Of a stretch of DNA of 64,000 nucleotides, positions 29,201-35,200 are shown piece by piece; within the stretch, counting starts at the first letter, position 1, and every line of letters begins with the position of its first letter. The DNA is from Magallana gigas (lineage: Eukaryota): the NCBI RefSeq assembly GCF_963853765.1, contig NC_088860.1:17298001-17362000 (forward strand). The letters run 5' to 3'. Made by a program: the position numbers.

Positions 29201-32200
29201 CTTGTGTCTGCAATGAAGGCCCTGATACTGCAAGTTAGCCATATAATGCTTGTTACATCTAATTAACCTTTGTAACCCTAAAGCCGTGTATGAATGAATG
29301 TATTATGCGTAAGCAATGCCTCATACTCAGGTGGGGGACTCAGAGACCCAGGACTCAGAGATTAAAAGCTGCATCCATACTCCATGATAGACAGTTTTGT
29401 TGCTTTATTTAGAAATAAAATATAACTCCGGAATTTGAACACTAAATGTTCACTCATGGTCATCGTAGATGGGCCGAACTACTCAGAACTGTCAATCATA
29501 AGTAAAATGTAATATTAATAATCCTCTGTAAAATAATGTTAAGGCGGATTTTTAATTTTTGGATTTAGAATTTTATATTAGATCTGTAATTTTTTGGCTA
29601 AAAATTTTATTTAGGATTTTAATTTGGATGTGGAATTAGAGATTTTGATTTAGATTTTGAATTAAAGATCTTTGATTTGGGCTGCTTTTAATTGATGTAA
29701 TTTTGACTATACGATCACGCTTGTTAATAAACTGCTTGTGAAAGAACTACTGGATTAGTGTTTACTAAGATTGAGACGCATCTCCAGGAGAGAACGAAGG
29801 TTGAAGGCTTACACACATGAAAAACAATGGTCCTCTTTTCTAGCAATGGTCTTTGTGTTTACCATTTCCACAAAATCATCACGCTAAGCAGATGAGCATT
29901 TCTGCATGGGGCAGAGTCAGCTTTTAAGGAAGGAGTCTTTTCTGGTTTTCGACTTGTCAAACGTAAATTTGATTAATTGTTCATTATATCAAGATGAAAG
30001 GAAATTAAAGTAGTATAATTTTCTTTCTTTATTACTATCATACAACTTGGCATAGAAATAGTAATCAATGTTTAGAGCTAACAAGGACTATATTATTGGC
30101 GGAATATTGGCGTAGGAAAATATCACATGTTTCGCAATTTAGAATTGCTGTAGATTAATGAGTCTGTTTTAGCATTTTTTTAAATAATAACATAATGTTG
30201 GGTTTTTTTAACTAACGTGAACTAAGAGATAGGATACTTGGGTTTCAGAATATGTTTTTAAAATGTGATTTGCAAATTACATTTTTATAAGCTTTTTAAA
30301 GTTCCCATTCTATACATTGATTTTTGTGAAAAAAAATCATTAAACTCAGTTTTTCTCTCTTATTAAATGGTCAATATAAAATCAGAAACATTTTAATATT
30401 GGAAGCATAAATAAAAAATAATCAAAATGTCTTCAAAATTTAAGAAAATTAGAGGAAATGCGGGCTTAGCAATATCAATTTTAGTTTAAATATTTATTCC
30501 AATTAAGTAGTATAAGCTGATACACATTCTGATATTTAATCATTTCATTGAAGGATAGAATCTTCATATCTTAAACAAATGTCTACATTACTGCAAAGAA
30601 CTACATTTAATTTTATCATCCTTAAGGAAGTTAAGGAAAATGTAGTGACCTTGACCTGACCTTTATGCAAAAACAAGGAGGTCAAATTTGATTAAACTGA
30701 TAGAATCATTTGGTTATATGATCTGTTACACTGTGTCAAAATTGAATGTGTTTCTTATTACAAGAAGTATGCTTGATATTGAGAAGACTCCTTTCTTAAG
30801 ATCTGCGCTCGCTCTTGCTTAATCATTTTTAAAGTGCTAAACATCATTAACTATAATAGAAATATTGAAAAATGAAATAAACCAACCCCCCCCCCTCCCA
30901 AAAAAAATTAAAAAGGCAAAGATATGGAAAAAAATGTATAAAATGTAAAATATAAAGTAGGCCTAGCAATATTATGTGTACCTGTATGTATAGTTTTACA
31001 TGAAAGCACTTGTATTGTTTTATAATGCAACTGTACATTCTAAAATCCTTTTTTGTTTTTTTTAATAAAATGACGAATTTGGTAAAAAAAAAAACTCAAC
31101 ATTTTTTCGTCATAGTATGGTCAGCTGAAGCCAAATAATACAATATTAACATTAATTGGTATCTTTTTGTTATTTATATCATCAATCAAAGAGTTTCTGG
31201 CAGAATAACATATGAACAATGAAAAAAAGAAATGAACACAGTCAGTCTTTATAAGAGTAACCACATTTAAGACATTAATCAGTTAGATTATGCTTTAACA
31301 AATATCTGCATTAAAGGTCTTGTTTACTCAGGGTTTTCAAATTTGGATTGTTATAAAGTTCAATTTGATGAGTAAAATTTGTTCTAAACAAAAAAAGAAT
31401 TTATGAAATGAATTATTATTGACAAAACATTCGATATTTTTACACTATTACGGAATTAGGCTCAAACAAAAATAGACTTTTAGCTTAACAGAGGAAATTC
31501 GGGCAAAATTTTGCAGATTTTGTTTTCCGCCAAACTTTTTTGGTAGTACTCTAATATTAAAAGTTAAGATTTTATATTTTAGTATATATCATATTGCATA
31601 TTTTCTGTTTTTACCTCATATTTTTCTTGATAAGGTCCCATTTGATCATAGGCACTTGTTTCGCTTTATAGTAATATTACAACACAAGATACCTTACTCC
31701 AAATTCTGGGAGTACCTCCTCCGGTAGATTGCTATCATTTTCCCTTTCACGGGAACAGCAGTGGACTAGTGTTAAATACCATTCTCTTTTAGGACAATTT
31801 ACCTACGAAATGATATATTGCATATGCTTGTCATTTTTTTTATTATTGTTTTCTTCAAGTTTGAATTTGTGTTCATTTCTAGTACAAATACCGGTATAGA
31901 ACTTAAAACAACTTTTTTCTTGATTTCGATAGGAACATAATGGTCCTTCGCTGGGGAATCTGTGGAGCAGGGTTGATTTGTAATGATTTTGTGTCGGCAT
32001 TGTTAGCTCCTCCCAATAATGTTCATGAGGTAAATAAATAAGGTTATTGCTTATTGTATTATCAGTAATGTTTATGAGGCAATGAGGTAAATTTGTTTAC
32101 TGTATTACGGTAATATCAAGACTATAAATGACAACTATTTTTAGCATTATACTTAATTTTAAATCCTTGATGATTGTTAAAGGTAGTTTGCGTTGGAGCA

Positions 32201-35200
32201 AGATCATTAGCTAGAGCCCAAGAATTTGCTGACAGGTTTGGTATCAAGAAAGCCTATGGCTCATACGATGAAGCTGCCACTGATCCAAATGTTGGTAAGA
32301 TCTTACAAAGTTTATAACTTTGTTTAAACCCAATTGGAAAATGTTATGATATGTTTTGTCTTTTAAAAAATAGCTCTTTTATTGCATAGAAATTATTTTT
32401 TTTAAAAGATATTTAGAAAATATTAATTTGTGAAATGTCAAACATGTTACTATAATCAACTGCTCGGGTTTCAATTGGGCATTTTGGCTCAGCTAAGCAA
32501 TATGGCCCATGGGCCTCTTGATCCACCAACTCTTTTATTTTGAGCAAACATACTAGTAGTTCAAGGTAAAGGTAAGAGTTTTGCTTACCTAATTAATAAC
32601 AGATATTTCACTTTTCTGCTACGTTTCAAATTTATTTGGCAGTTTTTCTTCATGTAAATCTGGTAAAATATGTTTTTATGCTAATATTCCAAAATCATTC
32701 AGATGTTGTGTACATTGGTTTGATACCCTGTTACCATGTGAAGCTGTCCAAACAGATCCTAAAAGCAGGAAAAAATGTTCTGTGTGAAAAACCAGTAGCA
32801 AGTAGTTTGAATCAGTTTTTGGAGGTCCAGCAAGTGGCCAAAGACTGCAAACGCTTCTTCATGGAGGTAAAGGGAAATTTCCTCTTAGTAGTTAGATTAA
32901 CTGTAAAAGCGAAAATACATTGTATTTCTTGTGGATTAATTTTTGCTACTACTTCATTGATATCATTAATAAAGGACATTTTCAGTATGGTTAATTTTGA
33001 AGCACAAAAATTAAATCCCCTAAAAATTATATAAAATAACAAATCAACGAAATTTTAGCCCTGTCTAGATTTCTGCTTTTTCAATATTTAAAGTTAACTT
33101 AGTAGAGGGGGATGAAGATGGTTTACAAACTTTTTAGATATAACATTTCAACATTTAAATTTATATCATGTTCACATTCTCTTTAGGCAATTTGGAGCAG
33201 GTGCTTTCCAATTTATCGTAAAATCAAGGAGGAGATTCATTCTGGAAACCTTGGGGAAATCCAGCATGTACAATGCCAGTTTTGTTATACTGTGGTTGAA
33301 ACGATTCGCTTTAAAAAGCCTGAGCTAGGGAGAGGAGGTCTGCATGAATTTGGAATTTACACAATCCAGCTAGCTACAATGGTATTTAACAATGAAAAGC
33401 CCTTGAAAATCACAGCTGATGCTTCATTTTCTGATGAAGGTTTGTCATATTACATGTACATGTACCGATATACTGGTATTTCACTTCACATGCAGAATTC
33501 TTTACAAAAGAAAATTGGTTGAAGTAACAATTATGAATATTCGCTTTTCAGCCATTTATTTACTGAAAAAAAATTAAAAGACATGTAAAACAAAATGGAC
33601 TTTAAAAGGTAAATTTTGATTGAAAATCTGTAGGAGTGGATCAAAATGGCTGTATGACCTTAACCTACAAGAATGGCGGTAAAGCAGTGCTCGTCTACAG
33701 TACACTGTTTCAAGGAAAGAATTCAGCAATAATATATGGTTCAAAGGGAAAAATAGAGGTGAGACATCTGATTTTTTCAGAACTTATGAAGAAAGCAAAA
33801 GGCACTCAAACTTTCTGTGCTGTCACTATCGTTTCAAGTTTTGGTTGAACTTTAATTGGTATACTGGTATCTATCTTTCAGATTAGAGTCTATAGACTTG
33901 TTCAAGATATCTCGAGTACATTTACTATGGATTGGTTGAAATAAGTTTTAAGTCCCAAATCCTATATATTAATTTTGATAAATTTTAAAAATATTGGTAA
34001 CTCATTCTGGGTATCTTTGGATTCTGTAAACCATGCACATATATTATTACATTTTAATAAATGCAAATCTCCAGCCAACAATTAGCTGTAGATGGGTACA
34101 TGTAGCTCTGTGGAAAATTCTTTTTACAGTCTTTACTTGAAAAATACGTTTTGATTTATCAATCTAATGTTCTAACACAAACTTTTGTAGTGGTAATATG
34201 TTATGCGAAATTATTCGTCAAACAATCTCACTACCTGTTTTAACGCTACTTCACTTGCCTGTGAAATTCTTTTATAAACACCCTCATCAACCCTGTAAGT
34301 AAGAGAGCCATTTGTTCACATGTAAAAATGGTGACTTAGGATCCGCCGATAAATTGAACACAAGTCTATTTCAGAGGCTGTTGCTGGTTTTTAAGCGAAT
34401 TCAATGTCTGAGTCAAGTTAAGTGATAGAAAGTTAAATATCTACCGGTACTGTAGAATTTTTTGCATGAAATATTTACTCAAAACCTGTTATGTGGACAT
34501 TAGGTGAAAGGGAAACATCAGCACCAGTTTTTGAAGGCCAAAAATTGAACTTGCAGGTTTTTTCATGCAAGAATTGGTAACTTTTAAGGTCGGTCAGTCT
34601 GACTTTTCCAGAATAGAGCTACAGATCTGCATGCAGCTAATTAAGAATTTCAGTACCAACCTATCAAGATAACAAGGCTTGCCTTTATTATAATGTTTAG
34701 TTTTTGCTGGAAAGCCAGTGAATATGAAAATATGAATGCTCTTAAATCTTTTAGATCGATGAACCCTTCTGGGCCCCAGCCTCAGCAAATCTGCCGTCGG
34801 GTAAGATAACCAATGAAATACCCTGTGGTCCAGCTCCATACAACTTTCCCAACAGTGGGGGTCTGCGGTATGAGGCCGACTGTGTCAAGACATGTCTTGA
34901 AGCAGGTAAAGTATACAATGACAGCCTGATCATCCATGGCGACCAAGCTTACTCCTTTTTAGCTCACTGAGAGGAAGTTAGGGGGAGCTGATGCTATTCC
35001 CTCGGCGTTGGCTTCGGCATCCAGACCTGGTTAAACTTTTTTGGATCAGGTCCTGTATCTAAGTTATTACTTATCCTATCTCCACCAAAATTGCAAGGAT
35101 GATGCATCTTGGCCTACCTATAGACCTGAAAGACTTGGATGCTGAATCTGGGCCATGAATGTCAGATGCTGGAGAAGATTTGGGTGTTTTAAAAGAGCTG

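What the first reader, a model, noticed from the sequence alone, without database searches (positions are those of the whole stretch)
32183..32866. Mosaic DHDH paralogues: introns group copies 1+2, but exons 2-3 group copies 1+3
Copies 1 and 2 share two insertions missing from copy 3 (intron 2 at 9966-10156 and 32326-32520; intron 6 at 13556 and 34956), and they match at the start of exon 2. From mid exon 2 through exon 3, copy 1 matches copy 3 instead. By manual count there are 3 differences in the 164-nt exon 3 between copies 1 and 3, versus about 16 between copies 2 and 3, including synonymous sites. This suggests a gene-conversion tract between non-adjacent copies and/or accelerated change in copy 2 (GLIPCYH vs GVIHIHH, ASSLNQ vs AACLSQ).
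Basis: partly seen in the sequence, partly recalled or inferred. Interest (0 to 1): 0.65.

Follow-up and report, generated by a model that had tools for sequence, protein, structure and literature searches.

The report
Mosaic tandem oyster DHDH-like genes
Three neighbouring copies of an oyster dihydrodiol-dehydrogenase-like gene have swapped short exon-sized stretches while one copy changed residues near its cofactor pocket, which is an ordinary way for tandem gene families to evolve.

Summary
The window is oyster DNA of the Magallana gigas / Crassostrea angulata group, not human. It carries three tandem 7-exon DHDH-like genes on the + strand.

- **Exon 3:** copies 1 and 3 differ at 3 of 164 sites; copies 2 and 3 differ at 16.
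- **Introns:** they group copies 1+2. Copy 3 is the odd one at 428 noncoding sites, against 138 for copy 1 and 95 for copy 2. Both shared intron segments are real.

1. **Copy-2 changes.** Eight outgroup oyster proteins show 5 of the 7 exon-3 amino-acid differences are new in copy 2. The C. angulata orthologue shares four of them exactly and differs at the fifth site. They cluster in loops beside His79 and after the cofactor motif GxxVxCEKP. pN/pS is about 0.5-0.6.
2. **Exchange between copies 1 and 3.** Silent codons of exons 2-4 group these two copies (copy 2 odd at 11, copy 1 at 1, copy 3 at 3). Introns 1-4 give 36/41/172. Copies 1 and 3 also share a 123-nt identical run and derived Cys102.

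This is not one tract from mid exon 2 through exon 3, because intron 2 keeps the 1+2 signal. Copy 1 has an in-frame stop in exon 3 that three database relatives lack. It is an ordinary case of a known process, of low to moderate interest.

The parts
9571..18304 (+). Copy 1 of the DHDH-like gene, 7 exons (9571-9660, 9814-9925, 10363-10526, 10851-11109, 11299-11423, 13355-13505, 18204-18304). It has one in-frame stop in exon 3 in this assembly.
   Evidence: An allele ORF with identical flanks (P0016), the M. gigas partial protein P0013 and the C. angulata protein P0008 have no stop there.
31940..36914 (+). Copy 2 of the DHDH-like gene, 7 exons (31940-32029, 32183-32294, 32703-32866, 33187-33439, 33634-33758, 34755-34905, 36814-36914), intact.
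   Evidence: Pfam exon by exon: PF01408 on exon 3 (E=4e-10) and PF22725 on exon 4 (E=3.7e-11). The closest database protein over exon 3 is P0007 of C. angulata at 96%.
45423..48291 (+). Copy 3 of the DHDH-like gene, 7 exons (45423-45512, 45664-45775, 46070-46233, 46565-46817, 46990-47114, 47521-47671, 48191-48291), intact. It is the copy most like the outgroup proteins.
   Evidence: Exon 4 is 99% identical to M. gigas P0001. Copy 3 has only 4 resolved derived residues, against 9 for copy 1 and 15 for copy 2.
32183..32866 (+). The finding's span: copy 2 exon 2, intron 2 and exon 3.
32719..32732 (+). Copy 2 exon 3, cluster 1: 6 copy-2-only base differences, coding residues 74-78 (GLIPCY before His79).
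   Evidence: Outgroups have V74 in 8 of 8, H76 in 8 of 8, and I77 in 6 of 8 (T in 2). This is the loop between strand 69-72 and helix 79-88 in the model of P0007.
32801..32812 (+). Copy 2 exon 3, cluster 2: 7 copy-2-only base differences, coding residues 101-104 (SSLN), just after the GxxVxCEKP motif.
   Evidence: A101 is in 8 of 8 outgroups. S104 is in 4 of 8, and N is never seen there. The Ser102 of copy 2 is an outgroup state (S in 5, N in 3).
32266..32280 (+). Copy 2 exon 2, 3' patch: 5 copy-2-only base differences. A sixth lies at 32221.
   Evidence: A61 and T63 are derived in copy 2; D59 is ambiguous.
10353..10475 (+). Copy 1 side of the longest perfect identity between copies 1 and 3: 123 nt, from 10 nt of intron 2 into exon 3.
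   Evidence: The walk test over all sites places the copy 1 = copy 3 tract at 10327-10546 (p=0.0002).
46060..46182 (+). Copy 3 side of the same 123-nt identity.
9843..9915 (+). Copy 1 side of a 73-nt perfect identity with copy 3 (45693-45765) inside exon 2.
9966..10153 (+). Intron-2 segment of copy 1 that copy 2 shares and copy 3 lacks.
   Evidence: Whether it is an insertion, or a deletion in copy 3, is undecided. No clear terminal repeats were found. Its last 30 nt recur at 50328-50357 with 90% identity.
32326..32517 (+). The same intron-2 segment in copy 2.
   Evidence: 160 of 186 aligned bases are identical to copy 1.
34962..36422 (+). Intron-6 sequence of copy 2 with no counterpart in copy 3 (approximate bounds). 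Copy 1 has the matching sequence from about 13562, plus about 3.7 kb of its own (14177-17917).
   Evidence: blastn blocks, alignment, 176-nt tandem repeat at 13833-14202.
33657..33771 (+). Copy 2 side of a 115-nt perfect identity with copy 3 (47013-47127). It covers most of exon 5 and 13 nt of intron 5, where copy 1 alone differs at a cluster of sites.
33283..33315 (+). Exon-4 variable loop of copy 2 (copy 1: 10947-10985, with two extra codons; copy 3: 46661-46693). All three copies differ here.
   Evidence: The structure model has low confidence here (mean pLDDT 57 for residues 161-170).

Best explanation
The window holds a three-gene tandem array of dimeric dihydrodiol dehydrogenase-like oxidoreductases (GFO/IDH/MocA family) from an oyster of the Magallana gigas / Crassostrea angulata group.

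**Duplication order.** The introns record it: copy 3 split off first, and copies 1 and 2 are the younger pair.

**Two processes on top of that history.**
1. *Short gene-conversion patches limited to exons.* They have kept the coding sequence of copy 3 close to copies 1 and 2. In exons 2-4, and most of all exon 3, they have made copies 1 and 3 nearly identical, silent sites included. The diverged, indel-rich introns in between were not carried along. That the patches stop where similarity drops is inference.
2. *New substitutions in the copy 2 lineage.* In the same exons copy 2 was not overwritten. It carries its own derived substitutions, clustered in two loops at the cofactor/substrate edge of the Rossmann domain: residues 74-78 before His79, and residues 101-104 after GxxVxCEKP. 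His79 and the motif itself are kept.

**Result.** Together these give the impression that exons 2-3 group copies 1+3. Whether the copy 2 changes are adaptive or reflect relaxed constraint is not settled.
For: **Identity of the genes.**
- Searching exon by exon, 12 of 117 candidates matched copy 3 exon 4. The best was an M. gigas 'trans-1,2-dihydrobenzene-1,2-diol dehydrogenase' at 99%.
- Pfam PF01408 and PF22725 match single exons.
- The C. angulata orthologue P0007 matches solved monkey DHDH 2o48 at E=7.5e-60, residues 1-327 on 1-327. Its model has TM 0.93 to 2o48.

**Intron tree.** At noncoding sites copy 3 is odd at 428, copy 1 at 138 and copy 2 at 95. Copies 1 and 2 share two intron segments.

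**Exchange.**
- Silent-only codons in exons 2-4 give 11/1/3 (copy 2 / copy 1 / copy 3 odd); introns 1-4 give 36/41/172 (p=0.004 and 3e-6).
- Pooled synonymous divergence is star-like: 0.109 (copies 1-2), 0.083 (1-3), 0.123 (2-3). Intron divergence is about 0.11 for copies 1-2 and 0.19-0.45 for either against copy 3.
- In exon 3 copies 1 and 3 have 0 of 35.3 synonymous differences. The Poisson likelihood ratio for conversion over no conversion is about 256.
- The identical run between copies 1 and 3 is 123 nt.
- The walk test over all sites gives p=0.0002 for 10327-10546.
- Cys102 is shared by copies 1 and 3 and is in 0 of 8 outgroups. His78 is in 1 of 8.
- Residue 106 is I or F in both paralogues across the sequences seen. 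Copy 1 has I in the window, P0016 and P0008, and F in P0013. Copy 3 has F in the window and P0001, and I in P0014.
- Other pairs have patches too: copies 2-3 share 115 nt at exon 5 / intron 5, and copies 1-2 share 99 nt.
- C. angulata's copy 2 orthologue has copy-1-like exons 6-7.

**Copy 2 change.**
- L74, P76, C77, S101 and N104 are derived. The other state is in 8, 8, 6, 8 and 4 of 8 outgroups, and the copy 2 state in 0.
- Four of the five are identical in C. angulata P0007, which has V rather than S at 101.
- P0015 is an unnamed ORF whose intron-3 flank is closest to copy 2 (44 of 57, against 33 of 48 for copy 1 and 18 of 37 for copy 3). It still has the ancestral-type exon 3 and keeps the 11 nt that copy 2 lacks upstream of exon 3.
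- 13 of the 16 copy-2-only sites fall in two 14-nt windows (p=5e-4).
- The motif role comes from passages of PMC11612644 and PMC5969746.
Against: - **Weaker signal within exons.** Within exons alone the walk test for copy 1 as a mosaic is only p=0.05. Within noncoding sites alone there is no copy 1 = copy 3 tract (p=0.84).
- **Bounds match the exon.** The identical block almost coincides with exon 3 (10 nt upstream, 8 nt downstream). Strong constraint would give the same picture.
- **Small counts.** The silent-site counts are small (28 codons in all), and several tests were chosen after seeing the data.
- **Shaky intron alignments.** Divergences for copy 3 above about 0.3 come from AT-rich, gappy intron alignments and are probably inflated. 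With introns 1-2 alone, the contrast between exons and introns at silent sites is p=0.05.
- **Most likeness is ancestral.** At protein level most of the copy 1 / copy 3 likeness in exon 3 is shared ancestral state. Only 1-2 residues are shared derived.
- **Proteins only.** Outgroups were available only as proteins, so no nucleotide outgroup test could be run.
- **Unknown source of P0015.** Its species and its orthology are unknown.
Confidence: 0.6

Rival explanations
1. There was no exchange. Copies 1 and 3 simply kept the ancestral exon 2-3 sequence under purifying selection, while copy 2 alone changed quickly through relaxed or positive selection.
For: - 5 of the 7 exon-3 amino-acid differences are derived in copy 2.
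- In exons 2-4, copy 2 has 13 derived residues against 3 in copy 1.
- The identical block matches the exon bounds.
- The exon-only walk test is only p=0.05.
Against: - Silent-only codons of exons 2-4 are 11 copy-2-odd against 1 copy-1-odd. The flanking introns are balanced at 36 against 41 (p=0.004).
- Copies 1 and 3 have 0 of 35.3 synonymous differences in exon 3. Their silent divergence over exons 2-4 is about 0.04 (5.0 of 113 sites), against 0.19-0.34 in introns 1-4.
- Synonymous sites look neutral for the copy 1-2 pair: 0.109, against an intron value of about 0.11.
- Cys102 is a derived state shared by copies 1 and 3.
Confidence: 0.12
2. One reading: one continuous conversion tract between copies 1 and 3, running from mid exon 2 through intron 2 to the end of exon 3.
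For: Copy-2-odd sites dominate from exon 2 position 39 to the end of exon 3 when only exons are read.
Against: - Intron 2 has copy 3 odd at 25 sites, copy 2 at 11 and copy 1 at 12.
- Copy 1 keeps the 188-nt segment that copy 3 lacks.
- The last 10 nt of exon 2 differ among all three copies.
- A noncoding-only scan finds no copy 1 = copy 3 tract.
Confidence: 0.04
3. The exons 2-3 of copy 2 were overwritten from a more distant paralogue lying outside the window, so its private differences were imported rather than accumulated.
For: - The differences are private to copy 2 at silent and replacement sites alike.
- They include an 11-nt gap and 3 substitutions in the adjoining intron bases.
- Several codons carry multiple changes.
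Against: - Of 51 candidates scored with the copy 2 exon 3 peptide, only the C. angulata orthologue P0007 carries the motif. This is weak evidence, because the search is word-based.
- There is no fourth copy in the window.
- This reading would still leave the near-identity of copies 1 and 3 at silent sites unexplained.
Confidence: 0.07
4. Constraint on the RNA or DNA of exon 3 itself (splicing signals, codon choice) keeps copies 1 and 3 alike at silent sites, without any exchange.
For: The identity coincides with the exon. Exons 1, 5 and 7 are also very conserved in all pairs.
Against: - The same exon in copy 2 tolerates 5-6 silent changes.
- Copy 1-2 silent divergence equals their intron divergence.
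Confidence: 0.1
5. The pattern is an assembly artefact, such as collapsed or mis-joined haplotypes or chimeric copies.
For: - Oyster genomes are highly polymorphic (recalled, not from a call).
- An N run lies 3' of copy 3 at 48840-48969.
- The stop in copy 1 is absent from three related database sequences.
Against: - The copies differ by 10-30% in their introns and by large indels, too much for haplotypes.
- C. angulata has separate copy-1-like and copy-2-like genes on one 51.8-Mb contig.
- Independent ORFs P0014 and P0016 reproduce the copy 3 and copy 1 exon-3 flanks exactly (29 of 29 and 46 of 46).
Confidence: 0.03

Closest known systems
Dimeric dihydrodiol dehydrogenase (DHDH; trans-1,2-dihydrobenzene-1,2-diol dehydrogenase), solved as monkey 2o48 / 2o4u / 2poq / 3ohs
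   Same: - Same length and domain order.
- The orthologue P0007 aligns 1-327 on 1-327 at E=7.5e-60. Its model superposes with TM 0.93, rmsd 2.0 A and 35% identity.
- His76, His79 and the CEKP stretch align at the same residue numbers.
   Different: - This is a three-gene tandem array rather than a single gene. That mammals have one DHDH gene is recalled, not tested here.
- Copy 2 has lost His76. All copies differ in the exon-4 loop.
- No activity data exist for any oyster copy in the papers searched.
Interlocus (ectopic) gene conversion among tandem duplicates, i.e. concerted evolution with exons homogenised and introns diverged. The fetal globin pair is the classic textbook case (recalled, not from a call).
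   Same: - Short patches of near-identity between paralogues that contradict the tree of the flanking sequence.
- Silent sites are affected.
- Different pairs are alike in different patches.
   Different: - The exchange here links non-adjacent copies (1 and 3), with copy 2 lying between them.
- The patches coincide closely with exons.
- The direction and age of the transfers are unknown.
GFO/IDH/MocA oxidoreductases with the GxxVxCEKP cofactor motif (PMC11612644 and PMC5969746, passages read)
   Same: All three copies carry AGKNVLCEKP in exon 3. The motif is untouched by the copy 2 changes.
   Different: The copy 2 changes sit in the loops immediately before the helix starting at residue 79 and after the motif. 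Their effect on cofactor or substrate binding is inferred, not shown.

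Membership tests
GFO/IDH/MocA oxidoreductases / dimeric DHDH | N-terminal NAD(P)-binding Rossmann domain (Pfam PF01408) | tested here: met
   Tested exon by exon. Exon 3 of copy 2 gives E=4e-10 (40.9 bits, cut-off 24) and exon 3 of copy 3 gives E=1.3e-8. Exon 2 alone is weak (E=0.015). Exon 1 alone gives no match.
GFO/IDH/MocA oxidoreductases / dimeric DHDH | C-terminal alpha/beta domain (PF22725 / PF02894) | tested here: met
   Exon 4 gives E=3.7e-11 for copy 2 and 4.9e-13 for copy 3. 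Exon 5 gives E=4.2e-5, which at 24 bits is below the cut-off of 27 for so short a piece. Exons 6 and 7 alone give no match.
GFO/IDH/MocA oxidoreductases / dimeric DHDH | GxxVxCEKP cofactor-binding consensus | tested here: met
   AGKNVLCEKP is present in exon 3 of all three copies. The consensus and its role come from passages of PMC11612644 and PMC5969746.
GFO/IDH/MocA oxidoreductases / dimeric DHDH | Full-length likeness in sequence and fold to solved DHDH | tested here: met
   Tested on the database orthologue P0007, not on a joined model of the window. Sequence: E=7.5e-60 to 2o48. Fold: TM 0.93. Of the window's own exons, only exon 3 was sent to this search (E=0.0079, residues 1-53 on 69-121).
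GFO/IDH/MocA oxidoreductases / dimeric DHDH | Dihydrodiol / sugar dehydrogenase activity with NADP+ | not testable with these tools
No oyster data were found in the papers searched.
Interlocus gene-conversion tract (copies 1 and 3, exon 3) | A stretch where two paralogues are significantly more alike than in the flanks | tested here: met
   The walk test over all sites gives p=0.0002 for 10327-10546. The identical run is 123 nt. The codon-level exon-only run test gives p=0.001. The exon-only walk test is only p=0.05.
Interlocus gene-conversion tract (copies 1 and 3, exon 3) | The likeness holds at silent sites | tested here: met
   Copies 1 and 3 have 0 of 35.3 synonymous differences (P=0.03 against the other exons). 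Silent-only codons of exons 2-4 give 11/1/3 against 36/41/172 in the introns.
Interlocus gene-conversion tract (copies 1 and 3, exon 3) | The likeness extends into noncoding flanks | tested here: inconclusive
   Perfect identity reaches only 10 nt upstream and 8 nt downstream. In the 27 nt downstream, copy 2 is odd at 3 sites and copy 3 at 1; in the 45 nt upstream the counts are 2 and 3. The 11-nt gap is a deletion private to copy 2, judged from P0015.
Interlocus gene-conversion tract (copies 1 and 3, exon 3) | Derived states shared against an outgroup | tested here: met
   At protein level only: Cys102 is in 0 of 8 outgroups and His78 in 1 of 8. A nucleotide outgroup was not available.
Positively selected / neofunctionalised paralogue (copy 2) | dN/dS above 1 on the copy 2 lineage | tested here: not met
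   In exon 3, pN is 0.080-0.098 and pS 0.166-0.169. Gene-wide omega is 0.56-0.63 for all pairs. These are pairwise values; no branch model was run.
Positively selected / neofunctionalised paralogue (copy 2) | Excess of derived replacements on the copy 2 lineage, at otherwise invariant sites | tested here: inconclusive
   In exons 2-4 the counts are 13 against 3 (p=0.02), but gene-wide they are 15 against 9 (p=0.31). V74, H76 and A101 are invariant in 8 of 8 outgroups, and H76 also aligns with a His in monkey DHDH.

The most novel reading that the evidence does not exclude
Copy 2 is a functionally diverged paralogue. Its two pocket-edge loops have been remodelled, including loss of His76, which is otherwise invariant in the 8 outgroup oysters and in monkey DHDH. 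Under this reading, selection shields these loops from the exon-confined conversion that keeps the flanking copies 1 and 3 alike. Copy 2 would then be a conversion-escape island in the middle of a homogenising array, with the exon-4 loop as a second diversifying site.
Probability: 0.25. Interest if true: 0.45.

Novelty: new member of a known kind. Interest (0 to 1): 0.25.

Why it matters
It is a clean small example of how intron and exon histories can disagree in a tandem gene family. Reading the exons alone gives the wrong duplication order here. Most of the apparent grouping at protein level is shared ancestral state, not kinship.

For oyster biology, it flags a lineage-specific expansion of a putative xenobiotic or sugar oxidoreductase. 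One copy has an altered pocket edge, and another may carry a null allele in this assembly.

It does not open a new question. Gene conversion and paralogue divergence are well-known processes, and the genes are already annotated in public databases.

Tried and rejected
- **Nucleotide outgroup.** None could be had. The one open contig collection holds only bacteria and archaea, so it was not scanned.
- **Allelic variants.** It was not repeated. Allele evidence therefore rests on the few ORFs returned.
- **Positive selection on copy 2.** The pairwise pN/pS is below 1, so selection is not claimed.
- **A transposon origin for the intron-2 segment.** No convincing terminal inverted repeats or target duplication were found. 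Only its last 30 nt recur elsewhere in the window. The question of insertion against deletion is left open.
- **The 11-nt gap upstream of copy 2 exon 3 as a shared copy 1+3 character.** Rejected. P0015, whose flank is closest to copy 2, keeps that segment, so the gap is a deletion private to copy 2.
- **Papers.**
  - Two searches for DHDH in oysters found nothing relevant: 1 paper and 4 papers listed, seen as listings only.
  - Three searches for DHDH catalytic residues found no DHDH structure paper.
  - The roles of His79 and Lys97 in DHDH are therefore recalled. Only the motif role is cited, from passages.
  - Paper supplements were closed and were not needed.
- **tRNA scan.** None found.

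Full report
**What the window is.** The window is AT-rich (GC 0.32-0.38) and has one N run at 48840-48969, which was left alone. Self-comparison shows three collinear repeat units. Each unit carries a 7-exon gene on the + strand, with AG|GT at every internal boundary and coding lengths of 1002, 996 and 996 nt. tblastn with two database homologues finds exactly 3 x 7 exon matches and no further fragment at E<=1.

The spliced models were searched exon by exon.

- Copy 3 exon 4 found 12 proteins among 117 candidates. The best was a Magallana gigas 'trans-1,2-dihydrobenzene-1,2-diol dehydrogenase' at 99%. It was followed by proteins of Crassostrea angulata, C. virginica, Saccostrea and Ostrea (lineage).
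- The contig is therefore oyster, not human.
- Pfam places PF01408 on exon 3 and PF22725 on exons 4-5.
- The C. angulata orthologue P0007 matches solved monkey dimeric DHDH (2o48) at E=7.5e-60 with the same residue numbering.
- Its AlphaFold model (pLDDT 87.6) superposes on 2o48 with TM 0.93.

**Checking the observation.** The finding's span is copy 2 exon 2, intron 2 and exon 3.

- In the 164-nt exon 3, copy 1 is the odd one at 3 sites, copy 2 at 16 and copy 3 at 0.
- The intron-2 segment (9966-10153 in copy 1, 32326-32517 in copy 2) is absent from copy 3 at 45822/45823.
- The extra intron-6 sequence shared by copies 1 and 2 is also real.
- Noncoding sites give the tree ((1,2),3): copy 3 is odd at 428 sites, copy 1 at 138 and copy 2 at 95.
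- The exon-3 pattern differs from the other exons pooled (22/31/32; Fisher p=2e-4).
- A run of 11 consecutive variable codons with copy 2 odd has p=0.001 when only exon codons are permuted.

So the mosaic is real and is not chance.

- Intron 2, between the two exons, does not group copies 1+3. Copy 3 is odd at 25 sites, copy 2 at 11 and copy 1 at 12. Right after the shared segment there is even a patch where copy 1 is the odd one (8 of 16 variable sites; p=0.0004). A single tract from mid exon 2 to exon 3 is therefore excluded.
- Copy 1 has one in-frame stop in exon 3. It is absent from an allele ORF with identical flanks (P0016, 46 of 46 flank residues), from the M. gigas partial protein P0013 and from C. 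angulata P0008.

**Adding outgroups (proteins only).** Eight oyster proteins served as outgroups: P0002-P0006 and P0009-P0011. I left out P0001, P0007 and P0008 as in-group sequences and P0012 as an insect protein. Exon peptides were added to the alignment as separate fragments.

- Of 57 variable residue positions, 36 could be polarised.
- Derived residues private to one copy number 9 for copy 1, 15 for copy 2 and 4 for copy 3.
- Shared-derived residues number 4 for copies 1+2, 2 for copies 1+3 (Cys102, Leu148) and 2 for copies 2+3 (Phe106, Pro256).

In exon 3, five of the seven differences are derived in copy 2: L74, P76, C77, S101 and N104. His/Tyr78 is ambiguous (outgroups: Y 4, F 2, H 1, S 1). 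Cys102 is derived and shared by copies 1 and 3. C. angulata's P0007 has the same residues as copy 2 at four of the five sites and V instead of S at 101, so the motif is not private to this assembly.

The unnamed ORF P0015 has an intron-3 flank closest to copy 2 (44 of 57, against 33 of 48 for copy 1 and 18 of 37 for copy 3). It still has the ancestral-type exon 3, and it keeps the 11 nt that copy 2 lacks upstream of the exon.

**Exchange or acceleration?** Silent sites separate the two, and they show that both occurred.

- Codons that code the same residue in all copies but differ in DNA give, in exons 2-4, copy 2 odd at 11, copy 1 at 1 and copy 3 at 3.
- Introns 1-4 give 36/41/172 (Fisher p=0.004 and 3e-6).
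- Faster protein change in copy 2 cannot produce this pattern.
- Copy 1-3 synonymous divergence is 0 of 35.3 sites in exon 3 and about 0.04 over exons 2-4. Their introns differ by 0.19-0.34.
- Copy 1-2 synonymous divergence (0.109) equals their intron divergence (about 0.11), so silent sites are not generally constrained.
- A simple Poisson comparison favours recent exchange between copies 1 and 3 in exon 3 by about 256 to 1.
- Residue 106 is I or F in both copy 1 and copy 3 across the sequences seen.

Other patches point the same way. Copies 2 and 3 share a 115-nt identity across exon 5 and the start of intron 5, and copies 1 and 2 share 99 nt at intron 3 / exon 4. C. angulata's copy 2 orthologue has copy-1-like exons 6-7.

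Copy 2 nevertheless does carry more derived replacements in exons 2-4: 13 against 3 (p=0.02). The gene-wide count is 15 against 9 (p=0.31). Copy 1 carries more in exons 5-7 (6 against 2).

**Where the copy 2 changes sit.**

- 13 of the 16 copy-2-only sites fall in two 14-nt windows, 32719-32732 and 32801-32812 (p=5e-4).
- In the model of P0007, residues 74-78 form the loop between strand 69-72 and the helix starting at His79.
- Residues 101-104 follow the CEKP stretch, in the loop before helix 103-115.
- The GxxVxCEKP consensus binds the nicotinamide end of the cofactor, and its lysine contacts the substrate in relatives (passages of PMC11612644 and PMC5969746).
- All copies keep the motif and His79. 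Copy 2 loses His76, which is present in 8 of 8 outgroups and in monkey DHDH.
- That these loops line the pocket is inference from the fold. The catalytic roles of His79 and Lys97 in DHDH are recalled and were not found in the papers searched.
- pN/pS is about 0.5-0.6 in exon 3 and 0.56-0.63 gene-wide. The family is loosely constrained, but positive selection is not shown.

**Limits.**

- Counts are small and several tests were chosen after seeing the data.
- Permutations ignore rate differences among sites.
- Intron alignments with copy 3 are gappy.
- Outgroups are proteins only, and two informative ORFs come from unnamed sources.

**Verdict.** The locus is an ordinary, well-behaved example of a tandem family. 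Exon-confined patchy conversion is overlaid on an older duplication order, and one paralogue is diverging at the edge of its pocket. Two literature searches found no description of this oyster array, but the process is well known. I rate it a new member of a known kind, with interest 0.25.

Noticed in passing
window 10363-10526 (copy 1 exon 3): Copy 1 has one in-frame stop in exon 3 in this assembly. An allele ORF with identical flanks (P0016), M. gigas P0013 and C. angulata P0008 read through. It is either a null allele still varying in the population or an assembly error.
   Followed up: partly
window 21060-23691, minus strand: Three ORFs of 217, 293 and 388 aa. Two match Pfam reverse transcriptase RVT_1, covering profile positions 3-97 and 125-193 in separate ORFs. 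This looks like a retroelement remnant whose RT domain has at least one break. It lies in the extra sequence upstream of copy 2.
   Followed up: partly
window 6144-6431, 19807-20099 and 41487-41761, minus strand: An ankyrin-repeat ORF of 96 aa, starting with Met, lies upstream of copy 1. Each of the other two repeat units holds a decayed copy: the second has 2 in-frame stops in its best alignment and the third has several. The duplicated unit therefore took a neighbour's exon along. This marks the unit starts near 5938, 19615 and 40363-41456.
   Followed up: partly
window 10947-10985 / 33283-33315 / 46661-46693 (exon 4 loop): This is the most variable stretch of the protein. All three copies differ, and copy 1 has two extra codons. 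Copy 3 stays closest to the outgroups. The structure model has low confidence here.
   Followed up: partly
window 33657-33771 and 47013-47127; copy 1 counterpart near 11424-11460: Copies 2 and 3 are identical for 115 nt across exon 5 and into intron 5. Copy 1 alone differs at a cluster of sites in the first 30 nt or so of intron 5. This is a second candidate exchange, or a mutation cluster private to copy 1.
   Followed up: partly
window 9945-10190 (copy 1 intron 2, both sides of the shared segment): A patch where copy 1 is the odd one and copies 2 and 3 agree (walk test p=0.0004), even though copy 3 lacks the segment in between. This is unexplained.
   Followed up: no
C. angulata protein P0007 compared with window copy 2 (34755-34905 and 36814-36914): The C. 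angulata orthologue of copy 2 has exons 6-7 like copy 1, whereas exon 6 of the window's copy 2 is closer to copy 3. An exchange happened in one of the two lineages after they split.
   Followed up: partly
window 50328-50357: The last 30 nt of the intron-2 segment of copies 1 and 2 recur here at 90% identity, next to a 175-nt tandem repeat (49502-50016). This hints that the segment's tail derives from a dispersed repeat.
   Followed up: no
window 13833-14202, 25670-25798, 28878-29007, 38658-39074, 42312-42573, 43217-43347, 49502-50016 and 59865-60313: Tandem repeat arrays with periods of 21 to 176 nt. Some share units: the arrays near 25.7 kb and 28.9 kb match each other, as do those near 42.3 kb and 43.2 kb, partly in inverted orientation.
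   Followed up: no
window 48840-48969: A run of 130 N lies about 550 nt after the stop codon of copy 3. It was left as it is, and the 3' flank alignment of copy 3 ends there.
   Followed up: no
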